Notes under the pieces: generated by a model
Told to the model about the DNA's origin: nothing
Databases searched by the model: none
The model's input: the letters and a program-made list of their open reading frames with translations, nothing else
NCBI GenBank assembly: GCA_963835605.1
Contig: CAWIHO010000045.1
Location: 12,713 to 44,712, forward strand
Direction: 5' to 3'
Origin: an uncultured delta proteobacterium
GTDB taxonomy: Bacteria > Desulfobacterota > Syntrophorhabdia > Syntrophorhabdales > WCHB1-27
DNA: 32,000 nt
Shown: positions 1 through 28,955 of the stretch, one piece after another
Layout: each line of letters starts with the position of its first letter
Position numbering within the stretch: the first letter of the stretch is position 1
Translations under genes and position numbers: made by a program

Positions 1-917
1 GTTGGGAATTGGCTGACTGCCATAAACACATTAAAAATCATGGAGCCGATAATGATAAGGAAAATCATGGCTGTCGTGTGCGTTACCTCGAGGAATGCAG
101 TGCCAAGGTTTGACCAGTTCAACTTTCCGGTAACGATGCCAATAAAAAGGGCCAAAAATGCGCCAATGCCTCCAGCCTCGGTCGGTGTAAAAATCCCAAA
201 ATAAAGACCGCCTATTACAATCACAAATAAGAACAATACCGACCAGACATCTTTCAGGGAGGTTATCTTTTCTCTGAAGGTTGTTTTTGGCCCCGGAGGA
301 CCCAATTGAGGATTTTTTCGAGTCATAAGAAAAATAGTAAGAATAAATAAAATGCTGAGTAAGATTCCCGGGAGTATACCGGCAACAAAAAGTTTGCCTA
401 TGGACTGTTCGGTGAGCAACCCATAAATAATAAAGACGGTACTCGGGGGGATCAAAATACCGAGAGTGCCACCAGCGGCAACGCATCCTGTAGCGAGACG
501 GCCATCATAGTTATACTTTTTCATCTCCGGCAAGGCTATTTTCCCAATTGTAGCTGCTGTACCTACGCTGGTGCCGCTTACAGCAGCAAAACCAGCACAA
601 GCAGCGACCGTAGCGATACTTAACCCTCCCCGAAAGCTTCCCACCCATTTATAGGCAGTACTATAGAGACCTTTGCTCATTCCAGCATATGAACAAAAAA
701 TGCCCATCCCCACAAAAAGGGGGACAACACTCATGGTATAACTAGCCATGTTCGAATAGAATACTGTCGCTATAACAGGAAGCCCTGCTTTCAGGCTTGT
801 CAGATAAAAAATACCGCCAAGACCCACCAACGACATCGCGACGCCAATGTGTACTCCTAAAAACAACATTAAAATCATAATTGCGATGCCGATGATTCCT
901 ATAGAAAACGGGCTCAT
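1..917 (-). CDS. dctM: TRAP transporter large permease subunit (DctM family), N-terminal ~305 codons; gene continues past the left edge
   Basis: Absent from the ORF track because no stop codon lies inside the window. I checked the minus-strand frame codon by codon from the ATG at 917 down to position 3 and found no stop. The translation (MSPFSIGIIGIAIMILMLFLGVHIGVAMSLVGLGGIFYL...SGTSVGTAATIGKIALPEMKKYNYD...AAGGTLGILIPPS...) is polytopic and DctM-like. Its start overlaps the dctQ stop (ATGA). Confidence 0.85.
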   Translation of the reverse strand, partial: MSPFSIGIIGIAIMILMLFLGVHIGVAMSLVGLGGIFYLTSLKAGLPVIATVFYSNMASYTMSVVPLFVGMGIFCSYAGMSKGLYSTAYKWVGSFRGGLSIATVAACAGFAAVSGTSVGTAATIGKIALPEMKKYNYDGRLATGCVAAGGTLGILIPPSTVFIIYGLLTEQSIGKLFVAGILPGILLSILFILTIFLMTRKNPQLGPPGPKTTFREKITSLKDVWSVLFLFVIVIGGLYFGIFTPTEAGGIGAFLALFIGIVTGKLNWSNLGTAFLEVTHTTAMIFLIIIGSMIFNVFMAVSQFP

Positions 918-1417
918 TTTCCAACCCCCTGAGCTAGAGAATGGATAAATTTTACTAGAAACACCAAAGTAAGCGAAATAAAGCTAATGGCCACCGCATA
1001 GACGAAGGGGTAGGCGGGTATTGGCAGCACTCCAATGAGGAGACCAGTTCTCCGTAAGGAGTTTGCATAGACGATGGTCTGCCAGGATGCTACTATAAAC
1101 ACAGCAAGACCTGCAAAGTAACTCAAGATATCTGATAGTAACTGGGTCCTATGTGAACATCGGGAAGTGAGAATATTAATACGCACGTGCTGGTCAACGA
1201 CCAGGGCATAAGCAAGGCTAAGGGAAATCACCAAACCTGTCATTACCTCCACGAATTCGTAGTCGCCTTTGATGGGTTTGTTAAAAAAATAACGTCCCAC
1301 AACATCCGCTGCGACAAATAAGACCATGAGTCCAAACAAAACAGCGGCCACATAATTGATCACGAAGCTAAATCCGATTATGCCTCGCTCTACAAGTCTG
1401 ACTGCACGATTGGCCAT
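914..1417 (-). CDS. dctQ: TRAP transporter small permease subunit (DctQ family)
   Basis: 167-aa ORF with about four hydrophobic segments. Size and position between dctP and dctM are typical of DctQ, and it is translationally coupled to dctM. Confidence 0.8.
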   Translation of the reverse strand: MANRAVRLVERGIIGFSFVINYVAAVLFGLMVLFVAADVVGRYFFNKPIKGDYEFVEVMTGLVISLSLAYALVVDQHVRINILTSRCSHRTQLLSDILSYFAGLAVFIVASWQTIVYANSLRRTGLLIGVLPIPAYPFVYAVAISFISLTLVFLVKFIHSLAQGVGK

Positions 1418-1578
1418 TTTGATTACCTCAAAGTTTATTTCTGTATTTTGTCGCTTGTCATCATAAGACTCTCTTTCAGAACCCCTGCGTTAGACCATTT
1501 TACTGATTACGAGAAAAGAAAGAAGAGTGAGCCGTGCCAGATGAGCAGCCTCACTTTGCCACGCAATTGTTTAAGCTC

Positions 1579-2628
1579 TTACTCCTTGTATTCCTTTGAA
1601 ATGCGATTTGCTGCATCAACAATTTTTCTCCCAGGCATCCCTTTGGACTCTAAACTTTGAATCCACTTCTCACGAATCGGTTGGGCCTGAGTGCGCCATC
1701 GTTGCAATTCGGTGTCTGGAAGCTGGATGATTTCGACCCCAGGCATTTTTTTTGCTTTATCAACAGAAATCATGTCCTCTTCCCACCATGCCTTTCCTGC
1801 GACCTTTGCCAAATAAAGACCGGAAACTCCGTCGATAATCTTCTGATCGGCCGGAGATAACGAATTCCATTTGTCCTTGTTCATGACTAAAGCGAATGCT
1901 GATATATTAATGCCGACCCAGGTGTGATATTTGGTGAGTTCGTGCAAATTAAACGTGTTTAAACCGGTCCAACTCCAAAATGTACAATCCACCACCCCCC
2001 TCTGCAATGCCAGGTAAAGTTCGGGGGCCGGTACGTTTATTGGAGTCGCTCCCAATGCTGTTGCTACCAGTTGTGCAACCGTCCCGGGGGCTGCTATTTT
2101 CATCCCCTTAAAGTCTTCCAGCTTGCGGATGGGCTTTTTAGTCGAGTGGATAAAATAAGGCGTAATATTATGCAGGTTGATCACCTTCACATCTTTGTAA
2201 TCATCTTTGATATATCCTTCGTCATAAAGTCTCTGTAAGACGAAGTTGGCGTGCCTGACATCACTTGACCAGGGCGAAAGGGGCATCTCAATAACATCAC
2301 TCAAGGGGAAACGACCAGGGGAGGCCCACTGGTTAAAGTTTCCAAGATCCGCAAAACCGGAGACAACATTATCATAAATATCCTTTTGCTTGGCCAGAGA
2401 CTCGCTCGCATAAATCCTTACCTTTATTCTCCCATCCGTATTCTTTTCCACCATCTTTGCCCAAGCGTCAAGGACACCCCGATACTCAACGCCGGTGGTG
2501 GGTACAAACGTGGCCAGTTTAAGCTCAACTGTCTTGGATTGAGGATAGCCGTTTCCACTTAGTCCTAGTGTCAGCACCAACGCCATGAGCAGGCCACAAG
2601 ACAATTGTGCTACTATCCCTTTTCTCAT
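1579..2628 (-). CDS. dctP: TRAP transporter solute-binding protein (DctP family), copy 1 (promoter-distal)
   Basis: 349 aa with an N-terminal signal peptide (MRKGIVAQLSCGLLMALVLTLGLSG). DctP-like periplasmic binding-protein sequence adjacent to dctQM. RBS GGAGGG lies upstream of the ATG. Confidence 0.9.
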   Translation of the reverse strand: MRKGIVAQLSCGLLMALVLTLGLSGNGYPQSKTVELKLATFVPTTGVEYRGVLDAWAKMVEKNTDGRIKVRIYASESLAKQKDIYDNVVSGFADLGNFNQWASPGRFPLSDVIEMPLSPWSSDVRHANFVLQRLYDEGYIKDDYKDVKVINLHNITPYFIHSTKKPIRKLEDFKGMKIAAPGTVAQLVATALGATPINVPAPELYLALQRGVVDCTFWSWTGLNTFNLHELTKYHTWVGINISAFALVMNKDKWNSLSPADQKIIDGVSGLYLAKVAGKAWWEEDMISVDKAKKMPGVEIIQLPDTELQRWRTQAQPIREKWIQSLESKGMPGRKIVDAANRISKEYKE

Positions 2629-2813
2629 CTTACCCTCCTGGTTAGCTTGCCATAGGCACGCGATGCCTGCCCGGTACGATGCCGGTCACGAAAACGACTG
2701 TTCAGGGAGACAAGGAGATACAAAAAGGCTGTACACTCCACATCGATTCCACCTGGGCCGGATGAGCCGTGCCAGATGAGCAGCCTCACTTTGCCACGCA
2801 ATTGTTTAAGCTC

Positions 2814-3863
2814 TTACTCCTTGTATTCCTTTGAAATGCGATTTGCTGCATCAACAATTTTTCTCCCAGGCATCCCTTTGGACTCTAAACTTTGAATCCA
2901 CTTCTCACGAATCGGTTGGGCCTGAGTGCGCCATCGTTGCAATTCGGTGTCTGGAAGCTGGATGATTTCGACCCCAGGCATTTTTTTTGCTTTATCAACA
3001 GAAATCATGTCCTCTTCCCACCATGCCTTTCCTGCGACCTTTGCCAAATAAAGACCGGAAACTCCGTCGATAATCTTCTGATCGGCCGGAGATAACGAAT
3101 TCCATTTGTCCTTGTTCATGACTAAAGCGAATGCTGATATATTAATGCCGACCCAGGTGTGATATTTGGTGAGTTCGTGCAAATTAAACGTGTTTAAACC
3201 GGTCCAACTCCAAAATGTACAATCCACCACCCCCCTCTGCAATGCCAGGTAAAGTTCGGGGGCCGGTACGTTTATTGGAGTCGCTCCCAATGCTGTTGCT
3301 ACCAGTTGTGCAACCGTCCCGGGGGCTGCTATTTTCATCCCCTTAAAGTCTTCCAGCTTGCGGATGGGCTTTTTAGTCGAGTGGATAAAATAAGGCGTAA
3401 TATTATGCAGGTTGATCACCTTCACATCTTTGTAATCATCTTTGATATATCCTTCGTCATAAAGTCTCTGTAAGACGAAGTTGGCGTGCCTGACATCACT
3501 TGACCAGGGCGAAAGGGGCATCTCAATAACATCACTCAAGGGGAAACGACCAGGGGAGGCCCACTGGTTAAAGTTTCCAAGATCCGCAAAACCGGAGACA
3601 ACATTATCATAAATATCCTTTTGCTTGGCCAGAGACTCGCTCGCATAAATCCTTACCTTTATTCTCCCATCCGTATTCTTTTCCACCATCTTTGCCCAAG
3701 CGTCAAGGACACCCCGATACTCAACGCCGGTGGTGGGTACAAACGTGGCCAGTTTAAGCTCAACTGTCTTGGATTGAGGATAGCCGTTTCCACTTAGTCC
3801 TAGTGTCAGCACCAACGCCATGAGCAGGCCACAAGACAATTGTGCTACTATCCCTTTTCTCAT
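2814..3863 (-). CDS. dctP: TRAP transporter solute-binding protein (DctP family), copy 2 (promoter-proximal), identical to copy 1
   Basis: The track ORF 2814..3896 carries 11 extra N-terminal codons. By analogy with copy 1, and given the shared RBS (ccaGGAGGGtaagATG), the start is the ATG at 3863. This gives the same 349-aa protein. Confidence 0.9.
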   Translation of the reverse strand: MRKGIVAQLSCGLLMALVLTLGLSGNGYPQSKTVELKLATFVPTTGVEYRGVLDAWAKMVEKNTDGRIKVRIYASESLAKQKDIYDNVVSGFADLGNFNQWASPGRFPLSDVIEMPLSPWSSDVRHANFVLQRLYDEGYIKDDYKDVKVINLHNITPYFIHSTKKPIRKLEDFKGMKIAAPGTVAQLVATALGATPINVPAPELYLALQRGVVDCTFWSWTGLNTFNLHELTKYHTWVGINISAFALVMNKDKWNSLSPADQKIIDGVSGLYLAKVAGKAWWEEDMISVDKAKKMPGVEIIQLPDTELQRWRTQAQPIREKWIQSLESKGMPGRKIVDAANRISKEYKE

Positions 3864-3944
3864 CTTACCCTCCTGGTTAGCTTGCCATAGGCACAATCAA
3901 AAATGGGACGGATCTTTAAGAAACTTTCCTCGGCCCTCTGGTAC

Positions 3945-4110: not shown

Positions 4111-4140
4111 TTGACGTAGTATTCGGTTGTTGCGTATAAT
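4111..4140 (+). promoter_or_regulatory. Candidate sigma70-type promoter for the molybdoenzyme operon
   Basis: TTGACG-18 nt-TATAAT, about 95 nt upstream of the GTG start at 4236. The leader contains a duplicated GAAGATTCC motif. Confidence 0.45.
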
Positions 4141-4235
4141 GCCTTCCAGAAGAAGATTCCAACGTTTCTTCGGGAAGATTCCGGTTGCGAGCACCGTTGT
4201 TGAGCCTCCCAGGAATAGAAAAAGGATAGAACAGA

Positions 4236-6806
4236 GTGAAAGAAGACGTCTGGGTCAAAAGTACCTGCAATATATGTTTTAGTCACTGCGCTATACGAGT
4301 TCACCGTGTAGATGGTGTAGTGACCGAAATTGAAGGGAATCCGGACTGCGCTACCAGTCTCGGAGGGCTCTGTCCCAGAGGAGCTGCCGGCATGATGCTC
4401 CTCTATGACCCCAATCGGATAAACACCCCGCTGAAAAGGACAAACCCGGAGAAAGGTATTGGGATCGATCCGAAGTGGGTGGAAATAAGCTGGGATGAAG
4501 CACTGGACACAATAACTGAGAGGCTTAGAAAAATTAAGGCCGACGATCCAAGAAAGCTGCAGACCATCCATTCCGTGATCCTCGGAGACAATGTTCCGTT
4601 GGGTGTTTCCTTCGCCGCAGCGTTCGGGAGCCCCAATTGGTTTCCCTCGGGAGCCGGTATGCATTGCGGAAACGGATCACACTTGTTTTCTGGCATGATG
4701 CACGCCGCCTGGACGAAGATGCCCGACCCAAACTATACCGAATACTATCTCAATTTTGGCTGCCCGGCGGGCTTCGGTGCTTATTACTGTGTTACCGGCA
4801 TGGCACAGAGGATGGCGAATGCCAGAAGAAGAGGAATGAAGCATGTCGTGATCGAGCCATGGATGGGAACGCCAGGCCTGAATAGTGATGAATGGATACC
4901 TATTAGGCCCGGTACCGATGCTGCACTGGCGTTGGCCATGGTGAATCTTCTACTTAACGAGTATGGGATATACGACGCAGGGAGCATAAAGCAATATACT
5001 AATGGTCCCTACTTAGTTGGAGTTGATGGCTATTACGTTCGAGACAAAGAGACACAAAAACCGCTCGTGTGGGACATCCTTGATGGAAAAGCTAAAGCTT
5101 ACGATGCCCCCACTTTACAGGACGTGGCTCTGGAGGGGAGTTACTCAGTTAACGGGGCTGAAGCCACAACCGCCTTTTCTTTAATCAAAGAGCATGTCAA
5201 AAAGTATACGCCGGAAATGGCTTCTGGGATAACTACCGTCCCCGCGGAGACAATACGCCGGTTGGCAAAGGAATTCGGGGAGGCAGCGAGGATAGGGAGC
5301 ACTATCGTTATTGACGGAAAAGAGTTACCTTACAGACCGGTCGCTGTCGGGTACTTCAGGGGAGCCTCCGCGCATAAGCATTCCGCTCTGATCAATATGG
5401 CACTTGAACTTCTGCAGGAAATAGTCGGGGCCAATAACGTACCTGGCGGCGTCTTGGGGATGAATTCCCGAGCCCTTGGGCATCCAGAAACCGGCCAGCC
5501 TTCGTACAGTCCAGGCGAAGGCCCGGATGGACTTCTGAAGGTAGGAGCGTGGACTGTACCACACATCCCCTGGCCTTTAGAGGAGCCCAAGAAACCGGAA
5601 ACGACCGGCATGACTGACCTCGTCCCCACCTCCGGGATATCTCCGCTCGTTCTCTGGGGTATAACGGAACACGAGAAGTATAAAATACCTTACAAGACTG
5701 AATTCGTGATGCACACCGGCGGTAATTACATGATGTCTTTTCTCGACCCGAAGGCCGTGGAAGGGACGTTTAAAGAAGGCATATTCATTGTTTCGTTTAG
5801 CGTTTTCCTGGATGAGTCAACCGAGCTTGCGGATATCGTTCTGCCTGATACCTGCTACCTCGAAAAGCTTGATTTGCGGGCTGATATGGACAGCACATTC
5901 TCGCCCGTGGATGGATGGGCGATGCACCTGAGACAACCGGTTGTTGAGCCCGTGCTCCAGCGAAGACCCACCCAGAAGGTGCTTCTTGAGTTGGCAGAAA
6001 GATTGGGCATACTGGGTGATTTCTATCGGCGGATCAATATAGCCTTCAATTTCAAGGACCCCTACAAACTTGACCCGGAGCAGAAATATACCTGGGAGGA
6101 GATCGTTGACCGCAGGTTGAAAGGATACTTTGGGCCTGAGCGTGGTCTGGATTGGTTCAAGGAAAACGGCCTCATAAGCTGGCCCAAAAAGGTGGAAGAA
6201 GTCTATTGGAGGCCTTTTGTGAAGGTTCGCGTACCCATCTACTACGAACACTTTAAGAGGCTTGGGGAGCAGATAGAGCACATAAAGAAAGAGCATGATA
6301 TACCCGGCTTTGACACATCGGATTTCCAGCCGATGCCGGATTGGAAACCGTGCGCGTCCCACGAGGAGAAACGTCCAGACTATGATCTGTATGGGATTTA
6401 TTACAGAATACCCTTTCACACCTTCACCTCCACTTACAATAATCCGTTTCTGGACGAAGTCTCCAAGACAGATCCTTATGTGTACGGAATCGCCATGAAC
6501 ACGGAAACTGCCCGCAAGAAAGGCATCAAGAACGGGGACCGGGTGGTCATTCAATCGGCGGGGACGGGCCATGAAATAGAGGGAAGGGCCGCCCTGAGCG
6601 AGGCTATCCATCCTGAACTGATTGCCTATGCCAGCGGAGGAGGCCACTGGTCGAAAGGTTTACCCATTGCCAGCCAGCAGGGGAAGGGAATATGCCCTGA
6701 ATGGCTCATCCCCTTAAGTTGGGATTACATAGACACGGTCAGCTTCAACCTTGACCTCTGTGTCAAAGTGAAGGTACAGAGAAAGGATGAAGGAGGGGCT
6801 CGATGA
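4236..6806 (+). CDS. Molybdopterin (bis-MGD, DMSO-reductase-family) oxidoreductase catalytic subunit, cytoplasmic; substrate unknown
   Basis: 856 aa. The N-terminal C-x2-C-x3-C...C motif (CNICFSHC...GGLCPRG) is typical of the family's [4Fe-4S] domain, and the length and overall sequence are typical of the family. No twin-arginine signal. GTG start preceded by AAAGGA. Confidence 0.85.
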   Translation: MKEDVWVKSTCNICFSHCAIRVHRVDGVVTEIEGNPDCATSLGGLCPRGAAGMMLLYDPNRINTPLKRTNPEKGIGIDPKWVEISWDEALDTITERLRKIKADDPRKLQTIHSVILGDNVPLGVSFAAAFGSPNWFPSGAGMHCGNGSHLFSGMMHAAWTKMPDPNYTEYYLNFGCPAGFGAYYCVTGMAQRMANARRRGMKHVVIEPWMGTPGLNSDEWIPIRPGTDAALALAMVNLLLNEYGIYDAGSIKQYTNGPYLVGVDGYYVRDKETQKPLVWDILDGKAKAYDAPTLQDVALEGSYSVNGAEATTAFSLIKEHVKKYTPEMASGITTVPAETIRRLAKEFGEAARIGSTIVIDGKELPYRPVAVGYFRGASAHKHSALINMALELLQEIVGANNVPGGVLGMNSRALGHPETGQPSYSPGEGPDGLLKVGAWTVPHIPWPLEEPKKPETTGMTDLVPTSGISPLVLWGITEHEKYKIPYKTEFVMHTGGNYMMSFLDPKAVEGTFKEGIFIVSFSVFLDESTELADIVLPDTCYLEKLDLRADMDSTFSPVDGWAMHLRQPVVEPVLQRRPTQKVLLELAERLGILGDFYRRINIAFNFKDPYKLDPEQKYTWEEIVDRRLKGYFGPERGLDWFKENGLISWPKKVEEVYWRPFVKVRVPIYYEHFKRLGEQIEHIKKEHDIPGFDTSDFQPMPDWKPCASHEEKRPDYDLYGIYYRIPFHTFTSTYNNPFLDEVSKTDPYVYGIAMNTETARKKGIKNGDRVVIQSAGTGHEIEGRAALSEAIHPELIAYASGGGHWSKGLPIASQQGKGICPEWLIPLSWDYIDTVSFNLDLCVKVKVQRKDEGGAR

Positions 6807-7444
6807 CCTACGGCATGGTGATAGACCTGAAAAGATGCATTGGCTGTCGCGGTTGCGAGATATTCTGTAAGAGCGCAAATGCCACCGCTCCGGGGGTGCT
6901 CTGGTCACGGGTGTTGTTCTATGAGCTGGGAAAATATCCCGCGGCCAAGAGGGTGCCTGTACCCGTGCTTTGTATGCATTGCAGAGTGCCCGCGTGCGTT
7001 GATGTATGCCCTACGGGGGCGAGTATAAAGAGGTCCGACGGGATTGTAACGATAGACGAAAACAAGTGCTCGGGGTGTCTTAACTGCCTCATGGCCTGCC
7101 CCTATGGGGCGCGTCATCTGTCACCTGCGAGCGATGAGGGTCACTTTCCTGGTCAGGGACTTACTCCATACGAAAAGGTCGGCTCCCAGCAGCACCCCAG
7201 AGGTGCGGTGGGAAAATGCAATTTCTGCCTGCCGAGGATTGAGCGGGGACTCAAGCCGGCTTGTGTCCAGAATTGCATGTCTAAAGCGAGATACTTTGGC
7301 GATCTCGATGACCCTGAGAGCGAAGTGTCGCAGCTTATACGCAGCGGGGGAGCCTTCCAGATTCGCCCCGTAATTTTCTCCGGAAGTCCGGTGACCGGGG
7401 CGACATCGGAGATAGAGACTGTAGTCTACTATCTGGAGCGTTGA
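6803..7444 (+). CDS. 4Fe-4S dicluster electron-transfer subunit (DmsB/PsrB-like beta subunit)
   Basis: 213 aa with several CxxCxxCxxxCP-type motifs (CIGCRGCEIFC, CMHCRVPACVDVCP, CSGCLNCLMACP, CNFC...C). Start overlaps the alpha-subunit stop (ATGA). Confidence 0.85.
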   Translation: MTYGMVIDLKRCIGCRGCEIFCKSANATAPGVLWSRVLFYELGKYPAAKRVPVPVLCMHCRVPACVDVCPTGASIKRSDGIVTIDENKCSGCLNCLMACPYGARHLSPASDEGHFPGQGLTPYEKVGSQQHPRGAVGKCNFCLPRIERGLKPACVQNCMSKARYFGDLDDPESEVSQLIRSGGAFQIRPVIFSGSPVTGATSEIETVVYYLER

Positions 7445-7535
7445 AGAGGCGCATCCTCGTGCGAACCGTTACGGATAAAAAAGTGGTAAAGCATCACGAG
7501 GCTATGAGCCAGAGGGTAGGAGAGCAAGGGTAAAG

Positions 7536-8804
7536 ATGGCAGCAAGAAAACATCTCATAATCGGTGCCGGTCCGGCTGCACTGAGTGCCCTGGAGGCAAT
7601 AAGACGTATTACCTCCCGGGACGAGGTCAAGCTGGTCACCCTGGAAGACTCTCTCCCCTATTCGCCTGCCGCGCTTCCCTACTTGCTGTGCGGAGGGATA
7701 ACAGAGGCGCAGTTGTGGCTGAGAGATGACGCGTATTTCAGGCACCGGAGATGCACCCTGGTGCGAGGTAAAGAAGTTACCCGTCTCCTTCCGCAGAAGA
7801 AAGAGGTTATCTATCACGACGGGGTTTCAGAATTCTATGATACCCTGCTCATCGCTTCCGGTGCAGAGACGGTGAGGCCCGCAATCGAGGGAATGGCTGA
7901 GGTTGGAATCCAGCATTTCAGAACCTTAACCGATTGCCGGCGGCTTCTCGGGGAGTTAAAGACCAAAAACAGGGTGGCTATTTTAGGTGCGGGGCTGGTG
8001 GGAATGAAGATAGCCGCGGCACTCCTGGAAAGGGGATGCCGGGTCAGCATTGTTGAGAAGGAGCAGACTGTCCTCCCCCTCTATTTCAGTGAGGAGGCCG
8101 AGGTCTATATAAGACAGACCTTCATAGACCATAAGGCCAGTCTCTTTATGGGAAAGGCGGTGAGTAGTGTCAAGAGAGAAGGCGACCAGATAAAGATTTT
8201 CTTGTGTGAGGGCGGCTCTCTGACTGCGGATATTCTCATCAACGCGATGGGAGTCAAGAGCAGAATACCTTTTCTGCAAGGGACAGGCGTGAGAATAGCC
8301 GGCGGCATCCTTGTGGACAAAGGAATGGGAACGAGCATCGACCAGATTTACGCTGCGGGAGACGTGGCCGAACCACCGGATTTTTTCACCGGTGAGCCGA
8401 AGATCAGCGCCATTATCCCCAGCGCTGTGAGTCAGGGTAGAGTTGCCGGCGCCAGTATGGCAGGGGTAAAGGCGGAATATGAGGGTGGAATCCCCATGAC
8501 GGCTTTTGGCTTCATGGGCAATCGGGCATTCTCCATAGGCGTGCCTATGCTTCAGCAGGACCCCGGGCAAGTGCTGACACAGAGGGATGGCCAAAACAAA
8601 AGGTTCAAAAAGCTGGTCTTCGACGGGGATAGGCTCATCGGTGGTATGTTCTTGAATGAAATCGTAGACCCAGGCATTATCCTCCACCTCATTAAAGAAA
8701 GAATAAATCTGTCATCTCACAAAGAAGCCCTCTTCGAAGGGACAAAGCCCCTCTCTGATCCTTGGTTAACCTCGCTTAAGTTCTCCCGGCCTGGCTCGAG
8801 GTAA
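7536..8804 (+). CDS. FAD-dependent pyridine nucleotide-disulfide-family oxidoreductase (NAD(P)H-linked reductase component)
   Basis: 422 aa with two Rossmann dinucleotide motifs (LIIGAGPAALSA near the N-terminus; VAILGAGLVGMKIAAALLERG in the middle) and an AAGDVA FAD motif. Confidence 0.8.
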   Translation: MAARKHLIIGAGPAALSALEAIRRITSRDEVKLVTLEDSLPYSPAALPYLLCGGITEAQLWLRDDAYFRHRRCTLVRGKEVTRLLPQKKEVIYHDGVSEFYDTLLIASGAETVRPAIEGMAEVGIQHFRTLTDCRRLLGELKTKNRVAILGAGLVGMKIAAALLERGCRVSIVEKEQTVLPLYFSEEAEVYIRQTFIDHKASLFMGKAVSSVKREGDQIKIFLCEGGSLTADILINAMGVKSRIPFLQGTGVRIAGGILVDKGMGTSIDQIYAAGDVAEPPDFFTGEPKISAIIPSAVSQGRVAGASMAGVKAEYEGGIPMTAFGFMGNRAFSIGVPMLQQDPGQVLTQRDGQNKRFKKLVFDGDRLIGGMFLNEIVDPGIILHLIKERINLSSHKEALFEGTKPLSDPWLTSLKFSRPGSR

Positions 8805-8865: not shown

Positions 8866-9354
8866 CTATGGTTCCCGGCTTCGTGCGGCCGACTTTATGG
8901 CTCTTATTATCTGTACATAGCCCCCGCAGCGGCATAGATTGCCTTCGATTGCCGTTTTTATCTCATGTTCGGTCGGGTTGGATTTTTCGTCCAAAAGAGC
9001 TTTTGCCGACATAATCATACCCGGTGCGCAAAACCCACACTGGACGGCCCCTTCCTCCACGAAGGCTGCCTGGATCGGATGTAGGATCGGATGAACGTCC
9101 TGGGAAAACGTCTTGCTCAAGCCTTCCACAGTCCATACCTCTCCTTCGTCAGCTTCCATTACGGGAAGTATACATGAAACGATTGCCTTTCGATTCACGA
9201 TCACGGTACACGCACCACATTCCCCCATCCCGCAACCCTCTTTTACCCCGGTAAGTCCCAATATCTCTCTCAAAAGATAGAGGAGTGTCCAGTGAGGCTC
9301 CACTTCAACCTGTGTAGGCTCACCATTTAGAACAAAGGATATGCGCTTCCTCAT
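8866..9354 (-). CDS. Xanthine-dehydrogenase/CO-dehydrogenase-family small subunit, 2x[2Fe-2S]
   Basis: 162 aa with the plant-type ferredoxin motif CGMGECGACTV and a second cluster motif (CGFCAPG...CRCGGY). Confidence 0.9.
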   Translation of the reverse strand: MRKRISFVLNGEPTQVEVEPHWTLLYLLREILGLTGVKEGCGMGECGACTVIVNRKAIVSCILPVMEADEGEVWTVEGLSKTFSQDVHPILHPIQAAFVEEGAVQCGFCAPGMIMSAKALLDEKSNPTEHEIKTAIEGNLCRCGGYVQIIRAIKSAARSREP

Positions 9355-9358
9355 TATG

Positions 9359-10321
9359 TTAGCTCCTTTCTTTCCCGAAAAACAGAATCCTTTCCAGACA
9401 TCTGAGCGCCAATCGTCTGGGCGAAACCTCTATCATTTTTCTTCGATACCATGCAGCCCCCCTCATGCTGTCCCTGAGCCGGGCCTCCTTTGACGCCATG
9501 AGGCCTGCCTCAATGAGATTGTGGGTAGTAAGCCTTTCCCCCTTCAAGAATTCTTCAGGACTTTTTACTCGCATCGGCGTTGGAGCGGCGACGCCTAACG
9601 CAATCCTCACTTCGCGACAATATATTTCACTTCGATCAAGGCAATCGAAAAGCTCGTCGAGGGGCGCATTTCTCGTGAATGCGTCCCTCAGTGCCGAGGC
9701 ATCTGCCACTTCCACCGCAAGCATCATAGCTACCCCGAGCATCGCAATTTCCATGGCCTGTCGACGGGCATGCTTCCAGTAGGCGCTCGCTGAATCAGAG
9801 GATAGAGACGGAATGATGAATTCAAGCAACATTTCGTTGTGCTGCAATATCGTCTTGCCGGGCCCGAGGTAAAACTCTCTTAGGGGGAGGTTTCTTTCAC
9901 CGCTCGATCCTTTTATACGAAGCTGAGTATCAAAAACAAGAAGCGGACACGCGGTATCAGCCGAAGGTAAGCCATTTGCGATATTTCCGCCCATCGTTGC
10001 CACATTCCTTATTTGCAGAGAACCAACGTGGTCGACGGCATCAGCAAGAGCCGAAAAACGTTCCCTTATCAGGCCCGACTCTCCAATCTGCCTATGTGTG
10101 GCCAACGCGCCGATCCTCACCCCGTTCTGATGAGGCTCTATGCAATCAAATCCCTTTATGCCCTTCAAGGAGATAAGAAGCTGAGGGGAGAGCTTCCTCT
10201 GCCTTATTCCCACCATTACATCGGTGCCCCCGGCAATGAGCATAGCCCGCCCCGGGTACTGCCGCAAAAGCTCCATCGCCTCCTCGATCGACGATGGTCT
10301 CAGGTAATCAAAATCCATCAT
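9359..10321 (-). CDS. Xanthine-dehydrogenase-family medium subunit, FAD-binding (CoxM/XdhB-like)
   Basis: 320 aa with FAD-binding PCMH-type motifs (LIAGGTDVMV, ATMGGNIA). Sits between the large and small subunit genes. Confidence 0.85.
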   Translation of the reverse strand: MMDFDYLRPSSIEEAMELLRQYPGRAMLIAGGTDVMVGIRQRKLSPQLLISLKGIKGFDCIEPHQNGVRIGALATHRQIGESGLIRERFSALADAVDHVGSLQIRNVATMGGNIANGLPSADTACPLLVFDTQLRIKGSSGERNLPLREFYLGPGKTILQHNEMLLEFIIPSLSSDSASAYWKHARRQAMEIAMLGVAMMLAVEVADASALRDAFTRNAPLDELFDCLDRSEIYCREVRIALGVAAPTPMRVKSPEEFLKGERLTTHNLIEAGLMASKEARLRDSMRGAAWYRRKMIEVSPRRLALRCLERILFFGKERS

Positions 10322-10338
10322 CTATATCCTCCCGCGCT

Positions 10339-12663
10339 TCAGGCGGACGACCCAGTCTTTCCTTCTTCCATTTCGATCAATTTCAGAAGGATTTTCTCCT
10401 GGGTAATGGGAAGATCTTTGAAGCGGATACCCGTCGCCTGGTAAAGGGCATTTGCAATGGCCGCCATTGGGGGAACGATCATGACTTCACCGATCCCTTT
10501 GGCGCCATAAGGTCCCTTGTGATTAGTCACCTCTGTTGCAACCGCAACGATCTCGTCAGGGAGATCTTTAACGGTCGGTATCTTATAATCGACGAAATTT
10601 CGGTTGAGCAACGTTCCCTTCTCGTCATAGATCATGCGTTCGGTAAAGGTCTGCCCGAGAGACATCACGATGGACGACATATTCTGTTGTTCCACATTTA
10701 TCGGGTTTATCACCTTTCCCGCGTCCACGACTCCGACATACTTGATAATCTTTGTACTGCCAGTTTCTCTATCCACTTCTACCTCGACGCCCCCGCTGGC
10801 GCTCATCCAGTAAAAGGAGGCGACACCCTGGGCTGTTCCAGGTTCAATGGTGCCTTTGGTTTGATAAATGCCGCGGCCGGTGAGACTGCCACGATTGACT
10901 CCCGTTCCTTTAACCGCCTGGGCCAGTGGTACAAACCTGTCCGGGATCTCTTTAACGTTAATGGACCCGTCTGAGAATTCCAGATCCACTGTTCCTGCGT
11001 CAAGCATTACCGATGCTGCATCCAAAAGTTGCTTCTTCAGGTCTTCTACGGCAAGAAGGATGGCATTGCCCATGTGGAACGTGGACCGGCTGGAATAGGT
11101 CCCAGTATCGAACGGGGCCACCGTGACGTCCGGGTCGAGCACCAGTACCTTTTCAAGGGGCAGCCCTAATTCTTCTGCAATGATTTGCTTGAATACCGTA
11201 CCAATCCCCTGACCCATCTCTACGGTATTACAGATCAGGTTTGCACTTCCGTCAGCATGCATTTTTATTAACGCGCTTGAAGTGGAGGGCGTGGCAGTGC
11301 CCTTCAAGCCGATTGATAATCCCTTGCCTCGAGATTTAATCTTGTTCGTACTCTCTCTTTTTCCGCCCTGCCACTCAATGCCTTCGGCCGCTTTATCCAA
11401 CAGTTGACCAAAGCCGATATCCTCTATGATCTCTCCCGTGTAAAACGTATCCATATTTTCTAAAACATTCTTTTTTCGAAGCACCAAGGGGTCAACCCCC
11501 AGCTTTTCGGCTATAATATCCATCTGTTGTTCATATGCCCATGCGACCTGCGGAATCCCGAACCCCCGCATCGCACCCGCGGGGACCTTATTTGTATAAA
11601 CGTTGTAAGCATCAATCTTCACATGTGGGATACGATACGGACCTCCGGCAGAAAAACCGCTATTCTTACTCACGACTGGGCCGATGTCAGCATATGCCCC
11701 CTTGTCGAAGTAAATCGCTATTTCACGGGCTACCAGCGTACCATCCTTTTTAACCCCTGTCTTGATTGTTACCCTACTCCCATGTCTCGAGATCGTAAAA
11801 AAATCTTCCTCACGACTGCAGCTTACCTTGACCGGCCGACCCGCTTTCCATGCCAGCGCCACGGCGATCGGCTCCAGTTTAGGTCCTATTTTTGCTCCGA
11901 AGCCTCCTCCAACGTAAGGAACGACCATTCTGATGCTGCTCAGAGGGACGTGAAAAATTTGGGACAATTGTGCCTGGACATTCGATGGATCCTGGTTGTT
12001 TGACCAGAGCTCGATCCGTGGGCCCTCGAGGACTTTCGCCAGACTGCAGTGGGGTTCAAGCGTGGCATGTTGAACGGGCTCCGTGGTAAACGTGTCTTCA
12101 AAGATAAAATCAGACTCTTTAAATCCTTGTTCAACATCCCCATGTCTTAACTTGAAGTGGGTACAAATGTTGGTGCCTTCTATGGGATTCAAAAGTGCTT
12201 TCAAGGGCGGGAGGGGTAAAATCTTGTCGTGAACCAAGGGGGCAGTAGTCGCCAGCGCCTGGTCAATAGTAAAAACGCCGGGTAATTCCTCGTACTCAAT
12301 GCTAATGAATGAAAGGGCCTTTTCCGCGGTAAAGATGTCGATGGCTGCTACAGCCGCTACCGGGTCACCTACATACCGCACCTTATCAATAGCCACGATC
12401 GATTGGTCGGTTATCACCATTCCATAATTGCTGAACCTCCCGTCAACATCGTTCCTGGTTAACACTGCCTTCACGCCAGGGATTTTCTCTGCCTGCGCGG
12501 TATCGATTCTTTTGATTCGGGCATGGGCATAGGGGCTCCGCAAAATCTTGCCATAAAGCATATCGGGTATTTTCAGATCCACGGCAAAGAGTGCTCTTCC
12601 CGTTACTTTTTCAAGAACATCTGAACGAGTTACACGTTTCCCGATATATTTAAAAGTACCCAT
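10339..12663 (-). CDS. Xanthine-dehydrogenase-family large subunit, molybdopterin-binding hydroxylase/aldehyde-oxidase type
   Basis: The track ORF runs to 12720, but I place the start at ATG 12663 (MGTFKYIGKRV...), preceded by GGAGGA. Family motifs are present: VGGGFGAK, AMRGFGIPQ and AKGIGEV with the conserved Glu. Confidence 0.9.
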   Translation of the reverse strand: MGTFKYIGKRVTRSDVLEKVTGRALFAVDLKIPDMLYGKILRSPYAHARIKRIDTAQAEKIPGVKAVLTRNDVDGRFSNYGMVITDQSIVAIDKVRYVGDPVAAVAAIDIFTAEKALSFISIEYEELPGVFTIDQALATTAPLVHDKILPLPPLKALLNPIEGTNICTHFKLRHGDVEQGFKESDFIFEDTFTTEPVQHATLEPHCSLAKVLEGPRIELWSNNQDPSNVQAQLSQIFHVPLSSIRMVVPYVGGGFGAKIGPKLEPIAVALAWKAGRPVKVSCSREEDFFTISRHGSRVTIKTGVKKDGTLVAREIAIYFDKGAYADIGPVVSKNSGFSAGGPYRIPHVKIDAYNVYTNKVPAGAMRGFGIPQVAWAYEQQMDIIAEKLGVDPLVLRKKNVLENMDTFYTGEIIEDIGFGQLLDKAAEGIEWQGGKRESTNKIKSRGKGLSIGLKGTATPSTSSALIKMHADGSANLICNTVEMGQGIGTVFKQIIAEELGLPLEKVLVLDPDVTVAPFDTGTYSSRSTFHMGNAILLAVEDLKKQLLDAASVMLDAGTVDLEFSDGSINVKEIPDRFVPLAQAVKGTGVNRGSLTGRGIYQTKGTIEPGTAQGVASFYWMSASGGVEVEVDRETGSTKIIKYVGVVDAGKVINPINVEQQNMSSIVMSLGQTFTERMIYDEKGTLLNRNFVDYKIPTVKDLPDEIVAVATEVTNHKGPYGAKGIGEVMIVPPMAAIANALYQATGIRFKDLPITQEKILLKLIEMEEGKTGSSA

Positions 12664-12786
12664 AGACCAATTCCTCCGGACAAATTCTCGCCGCAGCCAT
12701 AAGCTGCCCTTGTTGCTCAAGAAAGTGCCAGCAAATAAATGCTATTGATTCAACGCATTGTCAAGAAGTTTTTTGCTTGACAGGGG

Positions 12787-14443
12787 CCCTCTAACGGCCT
12801 GTTGCCCAAATCGCTGAGATAAGTTTCTTCTGGGAAAGACGGCGAGAAAAAAATTGTTCATAATTGTATACAATTTACTTGCATTTATATGGGACGTATG
12901 CTATGCTTCGAAAACGCTCAGAGCAAGGAGATACGGCCTATGATGGGTCATCAGTCCCCGCCTCAGGATCCTCTCTTTTCTGTCAATGTTCAGCTTGAAA
13001 CAAGGGTGCGCACTGACCACCCTCTCCGAAGCGTGAAGGAGCTGATTGATTTCGATTTTGTCTATAACGAGGTAGCCGCTACGTATGGGGAAAACGGCAA
13101 CGTCTCTGTTCCTCCTCCCGTCATCCTGAAGCTCATGCTCCTGCTCATCCTGTACAATGTCCGTTCTGAACGGGAACTGATGGAAACGCTTCCCGAACGG
13201 CTCGATTGGCTCTGGTTCCTGGGCTACACCCTTGATACCGAGATTCCCGATCACAGCGTTCTCTCCAAGGCGCGCACGCGCTGGGGAAAGGAAGCCTTCA
13301 AACACTTCTTTGAACGGATCGTCCTCGCGTGTGTCAAGGCCGGGTTGGTTGACGGAATGAAGATCTTCGTAGATAGCAGCTTCATCGATGCCGATGCGTC
13401 AAACGGCGCTGTTATCGATACCCACGCACTCAGCCGCTACCTCAACGAACGATACCAGGGGTTGGAGAAGCGACTGGAGGAGAAGGAAGTCGCGGAGCCT
13501 CGCACCGACCACGTGGTCAATCGACGCTATCTCTCCACCACCGATCCCGACGCATCCATCGTGCGGCAGGGAAAAGGCGGCGCAAAACTGCAGTATAAGA
13601 CCCACCGGGCCGTTGATGCAGGCTGCGAGATCATTACCGCGGTGGAGGTAACACCCGGTGCCATCAACGAAGGGCACAAGATGGCCTCTCTTATCGACGG
13701 GCACGAGGCAACGACGGACACAAAGATAGCAACAGTCGTTGCCGACAGCCAGTACGGTACCAAAGAGAATTTCCTGCTCTGCCACGATAAAGGGATAGCT
13801 GCCCACATGCCCGTGGTAAAGTACCTCAACGAAGCGTCACGGAAGGGAATATTCTCGGAGGACCAATTTGTCTACGACAGGAAGACCGATACCTTCATAT
13901 GCCCTGCCGGGCAGCCCTTGAAAGGAAGAACGCTCCATGGGCAGAACCGTGAGTACCTTGCCTCACGGAGCGCCTGTCGTTCCTGCCCGCTCAAGCCACA
14001 GTGTACCAGGGCCAGGGTAAGAACCTTACAGCGCCATAGCCGCCAGGAAGCGCTTGACCATATGTTCCTTGAGGCACGAACCCCACAGGCGAAACGCGAC
14101 ATCGCCACCCGCCAATACCTCATGGAACGCTCGTTTGCAAGAAGTACGCGCTATGGATTTGATCGAGCGCGGTGGCGAGGTCTCTGGAGAGTGGCCATCC
14201 AGGAATACTTAGTCTGTGCACTCCAGAACATCATGACGCTCGTGAGGTTCGTACAAAGGCCCACGAGGGGGATACGCACGCTCCCGATCCGAGCAAAGCG
14301 TGTGCTGTACGCGATGACCAGCGGCGTCCTGCGTATCCGATTAATTGTTCCTTTACGACGTGCCCCACAGCGGTGTTCTTCCGTTCGAGATGACGACGAG
14401 CACCACGTGGCTATCCTGGTTTGGGCAACAGGCCGCTAATGGG
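12787..14443 (+). mobile_element. Insertion sequence, IS1182/IS5-like, apparently intact
   Basis: Terminal inverted repeats TAACGGCCTGTTGCCCAAA (12792-12810) and TTTGGGCAACAGGCCGCTA (14420-14438) match at 18 of 19 positions. A further CCC/GGG match lies a few bases outward. They flank a single transposase gene whose stop codon lies inside the right repeat. No target-site duplication was recognised. Confidence 0.8.
12940..14439 (+). CDS. DDE transposase (IS1182/IS5-like; InsH-type N-terminal domain plus C-terminal DDE domain)
   Basis: The track ORF starts at 12889. I prefer ATG 12940 because AAGGAG lies 9 nt upstream. The sequence (PLRSVKELIDF...PPVILKLMLLLILYNVRSERELMETLPERLDWLWFLGY...HSVLSKARTRWG...FVDSSFIDADAS...) is typical of this transposase group. 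Confidence 0.85.
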   Translation: MMGHQSPPQDPLFSVNVQLETRVRTDHPLRSVKELIDFDFVYNEVAATYGENGNVSVPPPVILKLMLLLILYNVRSERELMETLPERLDWLWFLGYTLDTEIPDHSVLSKARTRWGKEAFKHFFERIVLACVKAGLVDGMKIFVDSSFIDADASNGAVIDTHALSRYLNERYQGLEKRLEEKEVAEPRTDHVVNRRYLSTTDPDASIVRQGKGGAKLQYKTHRAVDAGCEIITAVEVTPGAINEGHKMASLIDGHEATTDTKIATVVADSQYGTKENFLLCHDKGIAAHMPVVKYLNEASRKGIFSEDQFVYDRKTDTFICPAGQPLKGRTLHGQNREYLASRSACRSCPLKPQCTRARVRTLQRHSRQEALDHMFLEARTPQAKRDIATRQYLMERSFARSTRYGFDRARWRGLWRVAIQEYLVCALQNIMTLVRFVQRPTRGIRTLPIRAKRVLYAMTSGVLRIRLIVPLRRAPQRCSSVRDDDEHHVAILVWATGR

Positions 14444-18286: not shown

Positions 18287-19108
18287 ATGATTCGCACACA
18301 GGGGCTCACAGTTTCCTATTCCGGCGTCAACGCCCTTTATCCAATGTCAATCGTTTTCAGGGAGCAGGAATTCACCGTGCTCTTAGGTCCTTCAGGAGCG
18401 GGCAAGTCAACACTCCTTCGCAGCCTGAACCTGCTTATCCGGCCTTCGTCAGGATCGATAATGGTTAACGGTGTGGGTGTGGTCAGCGGCGGGAAAGCGT
18501 TGCGCGACCACCGCCGCTGCACCGCAATGATCTTCCAACAGCATCAACTCCTTGATCGTCAGACTGCCCTGCACAACGTCCTCATCGGCCGGCTCGGTTA
18601 TCACTCCACGCTGCGGAGCATCTTTCCTCTTTCCCGCGAGGAACAGATCATCGGTCTCCAGAGCTTGGAGCGTGTGGGTCTTTTGCAGAAGGCGATGGAG
18701 AGGGTCGACCGCTTAAGCGGCGGCGAACGCCAGCGGGTAGGCATCGCGCGCTGCCTGGCCCAAAAACCGCGTATTATTCTCGCGGACGAGCCCGTAGCAA
18801 GCCTTGATCCGGCCACGGCTGAAAAGGTAATGTCGCTTCTCGGCGGGATATGCAGAGAAGACGGTATCACCGCCATCGTAAGCCTGCACCAGGTCTCCAT
18901 CGCCAAACGGTTCGCCGATCGGGTGCTCGGTCTCACTCATGGAAGGATTGTATTCGATGGCACCGCCGATGAGCTGACCGATGGTGCACTTAACCTGATC
19001 TATAACGGCAGTGAAGTTCGAGTAAGGAGAGAATCGAAGGAAGTTGCCCTGGTCTCAGGAGACAGTGTGACCGGGCTGGAGAGCCGGCCGGTCCGGCTCT
19101 ATCAATAA
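18287..19108 (+). CDS. ptxA: Phosphite/phosphonate ABC transporter ATP-binding protein
   Basis: 273 aa with Walker A (GPSGAGKST), the ABC signature (LSGGERQRV) and Walker B (IILADEP). PhnC-like, first gene of the operon that ends in ptxD. RBS GAGGTGG. Confidence 0.85.
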   Translation: MIRTQGLTVSYSGVNALYPMSIVFREQEFTVLLGPSGAGKSTLLRSLNLLIRPSSGSIMVNGVGVVSGGKALRDHRRCTAMIFQQHQLLDRQTALHNVLIGRLGYHSTLRSIFPLSREEQIIGLQSLERVGLLQKAMERVDRLSGGERQRVGIARCLAQKPRIILADEPVASLDPATAEKVMSLLGGICREDGITAIVSLHQVSIAKRFADRVLGLTHGRIVFDGTADELTDGALNLIYNGSEVRVRRESKEVALVSGDSVTGLESRPVRLYQ

Positions 19109-19990
<882 letters not shown>

Positions 19991-19993
19991 CCA

Positions 19994-20794
19994 ATGGCAA
20001 AGATTCAGTACCTTGACGTTCTTGAACTGAAGAGGCGGCGCACTCGAAAGACCATGATACAGGCCTGCTTCGCGCTGCTTCTCGCCGGCGGCTGCCTTTT
20101 TTATGTGGGCTTCTTCGACACGCAGCGCCTGGCTGAAGGGATTCCGGCGATTCTCTCATTGATCACCGAGAGCCTGCCGCCTGATTTCACGGACAGCTTG
20201 AAATGGCTGAAACCTCTGGCCGACACTTTGGCAATGAGCGTCGCGGGCACCTGCCTCGCGGTCGCGCTCTCGCTGCCCCTCGCGCTTCTTGGCTCGGGCG
20301 CCACCTCTCCTCACCCCGCCATCTACCATGTGACACGACTGGTTCTGAATGCGCTCAGATCGGTGCCTGAACTAATCATGGGTATCCTTTTCGTGGCTGC
20401 CGTCGGCTTTGGCGTGCTGCCGGGCGTGCTTGCTCTGGGTCTCCACTCCGTCGGCATGGTCGGCAAGTTCTTTTCCGAAGCCATCGAGCACGTGGACAAC
20501 GAGCCGGTGGAGGCAGTCCGTTCATCGGGTGCCAGTCACCTGCAGGTGATCCTGCACGGTATTCTCCCGCAGGTGCTGCCGCAGATGGCGGATGTGGCTA
20601 TCTACCGGTGGGAGTACAACTTCAGGGCCTCGACCGTGATGGGCATGGTGGGGGCAGGCGGCATCGGTTTCGAGTTGATGGGATCGCTCCGTCTGATGCA
20701 ATACCGCGAAGTGTCGGCCCTCCTTCTTGTGATCCTTGCAATGGTCACCATTGTCGATACCCTTGGCTCCTATCTGAGGAACAGGTTCAAATGA
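19994..20794 (+). CDS. ptxC: Phosphite/phosphonate ABC transporter permease (PhnE/PtxC family)
   Basis: 266-aa polytopic membrane protein in the PhnE position. Its stop overlaps an ATG of the next ORF. Confidence 0.85.
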   Translation: MAKIQYLDVLELKRRRTRKTMIQACFALLLAGGCLFYVGFFDTQRLAEGIPAILSLITESLPPDFTDSLKWLKPLADTLAMSVAGTCLAVALSLPLALLGSGATSPHPAIYHVTRLVLNALRSVPELIMGILFVAAVGFGVLPGVLALGLHSVGMVGKFFSEAIEHVDNEPVEAVRSSGASHLQVILHGILPQVLPQMADVAIYRWEYNFRASTVMGMVGAGGIGFELMGSLRLMQYREVSALLLVILAMVTIVDTLGSYLRNRFK

Positions 20795-20811
20795 AAACGA
20801 ATGGAGGCGTC

Positions 20812-28525: not shown

Positions 28526-28954
28526 TTAAATGCTGTAGGTTTCCGGGCCTAGCGTGTGCACCCAGTTCGCCTTGAGGATCTCTTCTGCTTCCTTGGTTCT
28601 ATCCACGCCCAGTATCACGATAGCCTGGCCGCTCACCCTGCCCAGATGGGGATAGAGATAATGGACATTAATGCCTGCGTTTCTCAAGGGCTTGAGCACC
28701 GCATTGAGCCCTCCCGGGTGGTCAGGCGTCTCCACCGCCAGCACATCGGTCTCTCTCGTTGAAAAACCGTTGGCCTTAAGAATGTTGAGTGCCTTTACAG
28801 GATCATCCAGGACAAAGCGGACGGTGCTTAAGTCCGACGTGTCCGCAACGGATATCGCGCGGATGTTAACTCCTTCCCTGCCGAGTATCTCGCTCACATG
28901 AGATAGCGCACCGGGCACGTTGTCGAGGATAACCGAAATCTGTTTAATGACCAT
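28526..28954 (-). CDS. Tandem ACT-domain protein (small-molecule-binding regulatory protein)
   Basis: 142 aa with two ACT-like repeats (ISVILDNVPGALSHVSEILGREGVNIRAISV; LAVETPDHPGGLNAVLKPLRNAGINVHYLY). Its start lies 1 nt after the stop of the gamma-subunit gene. Confidence 0.8.
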   Translation of the reverse strand: MVIKQISVILDNVPGALSHVSEILGREGVNIRAISVADTSDLSTVRFVLDDPVKALNILKANGFSTRETDVLAVETPDHPGGLNAVLKPLRNAGINVHYLYPHLGRVSGQAIVILGVDRTKEAEEILKANWVHTLGPETYSI

Positions 28955-28955
28955 C

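What the first reader, a model, noticed from the sequence alone, without database searches (positions are those of the whole stretch)
4111..8804. Cytoplasmic bis-MGD molybdoenzyme with an Fe-S subunit and a dedicated FAD/NAD(P)H oxidoreductase; substrate unknown
The catalytic subunit has the N-terminal Cys4 Fe-S motif and a candidate Mo-ligand Cys context (GAGMHCGNGSH) but no Tat signal. The beta subunit is a 4-cluster ferredoxin. There is no membrane-anchor gene.

Instead, the third gene encodes a two-Rossmann pyridine-nucleotide-disulfide-family flavoprotein. This resembles NAD(P)H-coupled assimilatory nitrate reductases (the NasC/NasB flavoprotein feeding a cytoplasmic Mo subunit) rather than respiratory Psr/Phs/Dms/Arr enzymes. 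By eye the sequence does not look like NasA/NarB.

It may be an NAD(P)(H)-linked cytoplasmic reductase or hydroxylase for the compound imported by the adjacent TRAP system. I regard this as the best candidate in the window for an uncharacterised enzyme system.
Basis: partly seen in the sequence, partly recalled or inferred. Interest (0 to 1): 0.6.

Follow-up and report, generated by a model that had tools for sequence, protein, structure and literature searches.

The report
Soluble NAD-linked PadB-family molybdoenzyme
Three genes in a sulfate-reducing soil or sediment bacterium encode an uncharacterised molybdenum enzyme. Its usual membrane anchor has been replaced by a soluble NAD-handling subunit borrowed from an aromatic-degradation enzyme, and the same arrangement recurs in other uncultured anaerobes.

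Summary
The operon encodes a Tat-less bis-MGD subunit (Cys144 aligns with the ArrA/PsrA Mo ligand), a 16-Cys ferredoxin and an FAD protein, with no anchor gene. The Nas comparison is wrong. The closest functionally named relative of the catalytic subunit is Thauera PadB (31% identity), which lies in a separate clade. The flavoprotein is PadH/AorC-type: it lacks a redox Cys, has an NAD fingerprint, and its nearest outside relatives are PadH genes in padEFGHI clusters. The triad recurs in 8 other loci (catalytic subunit 67-94% identical). Four equally close relatives carry an NrfD-type anchor instead. Beta and flavoprotein each form one clade, while the catalytic subunits do not (AU p=0.011), so the electron-outlet module appears to have been swapped more than once. 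A 5-11-residue beta insertion marks the flavoprotein type, and its absence correctly predicted an anchor in one test. A beta-flavoprotein model scored 0.76 against 0.00 for controls. The adjacent TRAP system is not conserved beyond the genus. Best reading: a soluble NAD(H)-coupled oxygen-transfer enzyme for an imported organic acid, with substrate and direction unproven. It is a new variant of a known kind. The scan had not reported this triad on other DNA.

The parts
4111..4140 (+). sigma-70-like promoter (TTGACG-18-TATAAT) upstream of the operon
   Evidence: 11/12 match; identical in same-genus locus L002; consensus match only
4236..6806 (+). alpha: bis-MGD (DMSO reductase/MopB family) catalytic subunit, PadB-related family; FS0 Cys11/14/18/46; Mo/W ligand Cys144, conserved His149; no Tat signal
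   Evidence: AlphaFold pLDDT 95.3; Foldseek best hit ArrA, TMq 0.73
6803..7444 (+). beta: four-[4Fe-4S] PadC/PsrB-type subunit, with a C-terminal insertion (about residues 190-204) typical of flavoprotein-linked copies
   Evidence: 16 Cys; alignment; trees
7536..8804 (+). gamma: PadH/AorC-type FAD subunit (Fe-S:NAD oxidoreductase), no redox Cys, second Rossmann GxGxxG ending in acidic residues
   Evidence: PadH 347 bits, below cut-off 475; best PDB hit 8C0Z_E, E 2.9e-60; tree; complex model
3..3863 (-). divergent TRAP operon dctP(x2)-dctQ-dctM; candidate importer, not conserved with the triad beyond the genus
   Evidence: Pfam; synteny
8866..12720 (-). convergent xanthine-dehydrogenase-family operon (L-M-S); neighbour, link to the triad unproven
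   Evidence: a 69%-identical large subunit lies directly upstream of another alpha paralog on C72

Best explanation
The operon encodes a soluble cytoplasmic three-subunit molybdo- or tungstoenzyme, best described as a PadBC-type head with a PadH-type tail. An organic substrate is converted at the Cys144-ligated bis-MGD centre of alpha. Electrons pass through FS0 and the four clusters of beta to the FAD of gamma, which exchanges hydride with NAD(H). Close relatives pass electrons to the quinone pool through an NrfD anchor instead. The beta+gamma outlet arose once, by recruitment of a PadH, and has been exchanged for beta+NrfD among close catalytic subunits. I slightly favour (about 55:45) the oxidative direction: water-derived oxygen is inserted into a low-potential aromatic or N-heterocyclic catabolic intermediate, and NADH is produced. 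Shown: gene content, conservation, family placement and module sorting. Modelled: the beta-gamma contact. Inferred: NAD use, electron path, direction and substrate class.
For: The triad is adjacent in 8 other loci: L002, L041, L042, L045, L047, the P0010 and P0030 contigs, and L108. L107 keeps beta+gamma behind an alpha remnant. An NrfD-type anchor follows alphas of 68-72% identity in L011, L044, L049 and L109. More than 30 loci at <=58% identity had an anchor and none had an adjacent PadH-like gene. Triad flavoproteins form one clade, 100/100, next to PadH of padEFGHI clusters. Flavoprotein-linked betas form one clade, 97/94, even with the insertion removed, while alpha monophyly is rejected (p-AU 0.011). 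The beta-gamma model scored 0.76, best control 0.00; the mark was reached by 58 of 80 solved and 2 of 110 mismatched pairs; run agreement >=59%, partner pLDDT >=77. The contact is at the Cys89-99 cluster of beta. A like complex (AorA-AorC, 8C0Z) is solved, so the pass may partly be memory. AorC links FS4 to FAD and reduces NAD+ (bioRxiv 10.1101/2023.01.23.525143). PadEFGHI is an NAD+ oxidoreductase (PMC4453571). The host carries dsrA and oah over cut-off, consistent with an anaerobic aromatic degrader.
Against: There is no biochemical data. Neighbouring genes differ between loci and name no substrate. NAD versus NADP rests on a sequence fingerprint and on relatives. The beta insertion is not in the confidently modelled interface (only residues 189-190 are). 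Co-transcription is inferred from a 91-bp gap with no terminator-like hit. From my own knowledge, PadB chemistry uses a quinone acceptor and would be uphill to NAD+, so the reaction must differ from PadB or run in reverse. The trees use 15-17 hand-picked loci, and the labels were set before the AU test but after viewing a first alpha tree.
Confidence: 0.65

Rival explanations
1. Same complex, opposite direction: an NADH-driven reductase that removes oxygen from a substrate (dehydroxylation of a hydroxylated aromatic or alpha-hydroxy/oxo acyl-CoA, or S-/N-oxide reduction) and so re-oxidises catabolic NADH.
For: A high-potential reduction can draw on either menaquinol or NADH, which fits the anchor/flavoprotein interchange equally well. 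Most characterised Cys-ligated members of the Psr/Phs/Arr lineage are reductases (PMC10100899 table).
Against: The nearest named relatives of both modules (PadB, PadH, AorC) work in oxidative catabolism.
Confidence: 0.3
2. It is simply an NAD-linked phenylacetyl-CoA:acceptor oxidoreductase (a PadB orthologue).
For: Alpha matches the Thauera PadB cluster over its full length (31%, E 5e-105), with the ligand Cys and following His kept. The ESM Atlas neighbour is named 'related to phenylacetyl-CoA: acceptor...'. Gamma descends from PadH. The genome has a padG/H/I-like cluster on C17.
Against: Thauera PadB branches outside the 99-supported clade holding the window protein. The alphas that sit in pad clusters of relatives (L007, L053, L083; 43-45%) form a different subclade. 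No padEFGIJ gene was seen beside any triad.
Confidence: 0.08
3. A cytoplasmic sulfur- or arsenic-oxyanion reductase (Psr/Phs/Arr-like) or an assimilatory nitrate reductase fed by NAD(P)H.
For: PhsA and ArrA are the best NCBIfam, PDB and Foldseek hits. The host has dsrA.
Against: All scores are far below cut-off (PhsA 250/694, ArrA 146/1600, NasC 72/1100). The ArrA arsenate-site residues (chain positions R125, H149, K158, i.e. R165/H189/K198 by my own knowledge of the numbering) are not kept in the alignment. Neighbours are organic-acid transporters and hydrolases.
Confidence: 0.07

Closest known systems
Phenylacetyl-CoA:acceptor oxidoreductase PadBCD (Thauera/Aromatoleum)
   Same: Tat-less bis-MGD alpha with the Cys ligand and downstream His; PadC-type beta (44% identity); full-length homology, 31%
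   Different: Separate clade; third subunit is a soluble FAD protein, not a membrane anchor; not in a pad cluster. The reference used is a Thauera sp. cluster so named by JGI, not the purified T. aromatica protein itself.
PadH, epsilon subunit of phenylglyoxylate:NAD+ oxidoreductase PadEFGHI
   Same: Nearest outside relatives of gamma (45-50%) are PadH in padEFGHI clusters; JGI names gamma's homologues 'phenylglyoxylate dehydrogenase epsilon subunit'
   Different: Below the equivalog cut-off (347/475); forms its own clade; partnered with a PadC-type beta instead of PadI
AorABC of Aromatoleum aromaticum (PDB 8C0Z)
   Same: Same design: pterin catalytic subunit, 4x[4Fe-4S] subunit and FAD subunit reducing NAD+; AorC is gamma's best PDB hit
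   Different: The catalytic subunit is of the unrelated W-AOR family; filament formation was not tested here
ArrAB / PsrABC / PhsABC
   Same: Fold (TMq 0.73 and 0.69), FS0 and Cys ligand
   Different: About 20% identity, no Tat signal, arsenate-site residues not kept, no quinol anchor
Assimilatory nitrate reductase NasC/NasB
   Same: Cytoplasmic, Cys-ligated, NAD(P)H-flavoprotein-coupled in principle
   Different: Different MopB lineage (72 bits); flavoprotein is PadH-type rather than NirB/NasB-type; has a separate 4-cluster beta

Membership tests
DMSO reductase (MopB/bis-MGD) superfamily | Molybdopterin + Molydop_binding domains and four-domain fold | tested here: met
   Pfam over cut-off; Foldseek E 8e-47 to ArrA
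DMSO reductase (MopB/bis-MGD) superfamily | Bound Mo or W bis-MGD cofactor | not testable with these tools
   needs metal and pterin analysis
Cys-ligated Psr/Phs/Arr/Pad lineage | FS0 Cys4 motif and Cys as metal ligand | tested here: met
   C11/14/18/46; C144 aligned with the ArrA/PsrA ligand
PadBCD | alpha in the PadB clade | tested here: not met
   PadB branches outside the window's clade (quick tree, SH-aLRT 99 for the excluding branch)
PadBCD | membrane anchor PadD as third gene | tested here: not met
   third gene is a soluble flavoprotein
PadBCD | oxidises phenylacetyl-CoA to phenylglyoxylate | not testable with these tools
   assay needed
PadH (NF045765) | equivalog score >=475 and padEFGI context | tested here: not met
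   347 bits; no padEFGI adjacent
PadH/AorC-type Fe-S:NAD flavoprotein subunits | two Rossmann folds, no redox Cys, adjacent poly-Fe-S partner | tested here: met
   complex model
PhsA/PsrA/ArrA respiratory reductases | Tat signal, equivalog cut-off, quinol anchor | tested here: not met
NasA/NasC/NarB | equivalog cut-off 1100 | tested here: not met
   72 bits

The most novel reading that the evidence does not exclude
A large uncharacterised PadB-related enzyme family (about 10 paralogues in this genome, 19 matches in another) has an exchangeable electron outlet. Close catalytic subunits are coupled either to quinone (NrfD) or to NAD(H) (PadH-derived), and the NAD-linked form catalyses an undescribed anaerobic hydroxylation or dehydroxylation of an aromatic or N-heterocyclic acid.
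Probability: 0.45. Interest if true: 0.68.

Novelty: new variant of a known kind. Interest (0 to 1): 0.5.

Why it matters
The PadB-related family is greatly expanded in uncultured Desulfobacterota and Dehalococcoidia, and in my searches only PadB had a named reaction. A soluble member that turns over NAD(H) can be expressed without membranes and screened at 340 nm, which makes the family's substrate range directly testable. Natural pairs with about 70% identical catalytic subunits but quinone versus NAD outlets also constrain the redox potential of the reaction. If they act on the same substrate, it must be either a very low-potential oxidation or a high-potential reduction. They are also a ready model for how redox modules are exchanged. 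The design itself has a precedent in AorABC, so this is not a new principle.

Tried and rejected
Plasmid tblastn gave only distant hits (<=30%: PhsA and unnamed enzymes). No NCBIfam equivalog fits alpha, and Thauera PadB itself also scores only on PhsA, so family scans cannot separate these enzymes. Nine literature searches found no description of a PadB-like enzyme with a PadH-like subunit. The library lacks most subscription papers, so this is not proof of novelty. I could not centre a genome search on Rhodocyclaceae and used the Thauera cluster P0260/P0305 instead. Shared contig lengths between alpha and gamma hits (e.g. P0001/P0341, P0006/P0366, P0011/P0356, P0023/P0381, P0027/P0380, P0101/P0392) suggest more triads. 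They were not looked up and are not counted among the 8, although P0027 was used as a flavoprotein-type row in the trees. Neighbour analysis did not give a substrate: amidohydrolases, cupins, OCD, creatininase, hydantoin racemase, CocE/NonD, PEP-utiliser and XDH genes vary from locus to locus. An obligatory link to the XDH operon was rejected, since the L045 XDH is only 37% identical and other loci lack one.
Full report
Observation. A sigma-70-like site at 4111-4140 (11/12) precedes them and is unchanged in a same-genus genome. Alpha carries the three MopB Pfam domains, FS0 cysteines 11/14/18/46, and Cys144/His149, both >=90% conserved in 115 homologues. Cys144 aligns with the Mo-ligand Cys of ArrA and PsrA. 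Alpha and beta have no RR in their first 60 residues, and the strongest hydrophobic stretch in any subunit is the Rossmann motif of gamma. The AlphaFold model (pLDDT 95.3) is closest to ArrA (TMq 0.73, about 20% identity). The host is a 5.08-Mb MAG with many frameshifts. Its same-genus relative is titled an uncultured delta proteobacterium. It has dsrA and the benzoyl-CoA-pathway gene oah over cut-off.

What alpha is. No curated family fits: PhsA 250/694, ArrA 146/1600, NasC 72/1100. An exhaustive search and cluster look-up found a Thauera cluster named phenylacetyl-CoA:acceptor oxidoreductase, followed by a PadC-type gene and a 301-aa third gene. It matches alpha end to end at 31% (E 5e-105), far better than any solved structure. 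In a 60-sequence tree, however, PadB branches outside the clade of the window protein. The 43-45%-identical alphas that sit beside padE/F/G/(H)/I genes in relatives (L007, L053, L083) form another subclade. So alpha belongs to a PadB-related family but is not a PadB orthologue. The family is expanded: 10 matches in this genome, most followed by a beta and an NrfD/PadD-type anchor and often next to TRAP or TTT transporters, and 19 matches in G043.

What gamma is. It scores 347 bits on PadH against 149 on NirB, and its best PDB hit is AorC (8C0Z_E, E 2.9e-60). It has no Cys at the redox-active position of CoA-disulfide reductases and NADH oxidases (the motif reads YSPAALPY). Its second Rossmann fold is GxGxxG with acidic residues after the second strand, the usual NAD rather than NADP pattern (own knowledge). 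Outside the triads its nearest relatives (45-50%) are PadH genes inside padEFGHI clusters. The triad flavoproteins form a single clade, 100/100. In G278 an alpha-beta-anchor operon lies directly upstream of padEFGHI, which shows how a PadH could come next to such a head (inference). AorC takes electrons from the terminal cluster of a 4-cluster subunit to FAD and NAD+ (bioRxiv 10.1101/2023.01.23.525143). PadEFGHI is phenylglyoxylate:NAD+ oxidoreductase (PMC4453571).

Conservation and module exchange. The triad recurs in L002 (89-94%, gamma cut by the contig end), L041 (76%), L047 (76%), the P0010 contig (74%), L042 (73%), L045 (71%), the P0030 contig (67%, order beta-gamma-alpha) and L108 (frameshifted alpha). 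Four alphas of 68-72% identity are followed by an NrfD-type anchor instead (L011, L044, L049, L109), as are more than 30 more distant loci. Flavoprotein-linked betas carry a 5-11-residue insertion near the C-terminus that anchor-linked betas lack. Among database homologues that could be classified, 27 are short and 54 long, and an LN pair inside the Cys89-99 motif occurs in 38 long and 0 short ones. As a test, I predicted an anchor for P0015 from its short beta; the locus has NrfD. Betas sort by partner even with the insertion removed (97/94), whereas holding the flavoprotein-linked alphas together is rejected (p-AU 0.011). The simplest reading is one origin of the beta+gamma outlet and repeated exchange with beta+NrfD among close alphas. 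The sample is small and hand-picked. The triad is rare: gamma matches at E<=1e-100 occurred in 2 of 401 phylum genomes and 3 of 401 Dehalococcoidia-class genomes, mostly PadH.

Complex. The beta-gamma model scored 0.76 against a best control of 0.00. The mark was reached by 58 of 80 solved and 2 of 110 mismatched pairs, the runs agree in >=59% of contacts, and partner pLDDT is >=77. Gamma residues 321-334 and 378-385 meet beta residues 88-102, the Cys89-99 cluster. Because AorA-AorC is solved, the pass may reflect likeness; it supports binding but does not show it. The insertion is not in the confident interface.

Substrate and direction. The divergent TRAP operon is orthologous only in the same genus. 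Other triads neighbour unrelated TRAP or TTT carboxylate transporters, an ABC permease, amidohydrolases, cupins, ornithine cyclodeaminase, creatininase, hydantoin racemase or XDH genes. This points to catabolism of imported aromatic or N-heterocyclic acids but names no compound. If sister enzymes act on the same substrate with either menaquinone or NAD, the reaction is either an oxidation below the NAD+/NADH potential or a reduction above that of menaquinone (inference). The ancestry of both modules favours oxidation slightly. PadB's own reaction uses a quinone and would be uphill to NAD+ (own knowledge).

Verdict. This is a real, conserved, uncharacterised enzyme. It works like AorABC in its electron path and is related to PadBC in its catalytic head, but it is a member of neither. 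I found no paper on it in the searchable library. Earlier scan notes held only this same stretch and an unrelated Tat-less A-B-NrfD operon. It is a new variant of a known kind; interest 0.5.

Noticed in passing
window 1528-2659 and 2763-3894: Exact 1132-bp direct duplication holding dctP (two identical 349-aa genes), separated by 103 bp found nowhere else in the genome. The same-genus locus L002 has one copy. It is either a very recent duplication or a long-read assembly artefact.
   Followed up: partly
window 8866-12720 (-) and G000 C72:10512-14750: The XDH-family large subunit (best hit 4-hydroxybenzoyl-CoA reductase alpha, 578/995 bits) has a 69%-identical paralogue directly upstream of another alpha paralogue on C72, next to an OYE-like flavoenzyme gene. 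This hints that the two kinds of molybdoenzyme can share a pathway.
   Followed up: partly
G000 whole genome: About 10 PadB-related alpha paralogues and more than 20 XDH-family large subunits, many with TRAP/TTT transporters; three dsrA copies over cut-off. Many are frameshifted, and contamination is given as 7%.
   Followed up: partly
window 18287-21843 (+): PhnC/D/E-type ABC transporter followed by a D-2-hydroxyacid dehydrogenase, the arrangement of ptxABCD phosphite oxidation operons. PtxD identity was not tested.
   Followed up: partly
window 12889-14439 and 23673-24702: IS1182/IS5-like DDE transposase directly upstream of the XDH operon, and a split IS110-family transposase.
   Followed up: no
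G000 C17:44231-48318: padG-padH-padI-like genes, with padH split by frameshifts; further 2-oxoacid oxidoreductase genes and a W-AOR-like gene lie nearby.
   Followed up: partly
L107 7201-9266: Beta+gamma intact behind only a 43-aa C-terminal alpha remnant, next to AOR-family genes; either a decayed triad or a re-used outlet module.
   Followed up: partly
window 25583-26626 (+): 347-aa protein with a Fer4_16 double cluster and no NCBIfam hit at 1e-40, divergent from an HxlR-like regulator; possibly an epoxyqueuosine-reductase or dehalogenase-like fold (recalled, untested).
   Followed up: no
window 28526-31313 (-): 2-oxoacid:ferredoxin oxidoreductase genes followed by an ACT-domain protein; the alpha subunit is split between 30690-31313 and 30235-30726, probably by a frameshift.
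   Followed up: no
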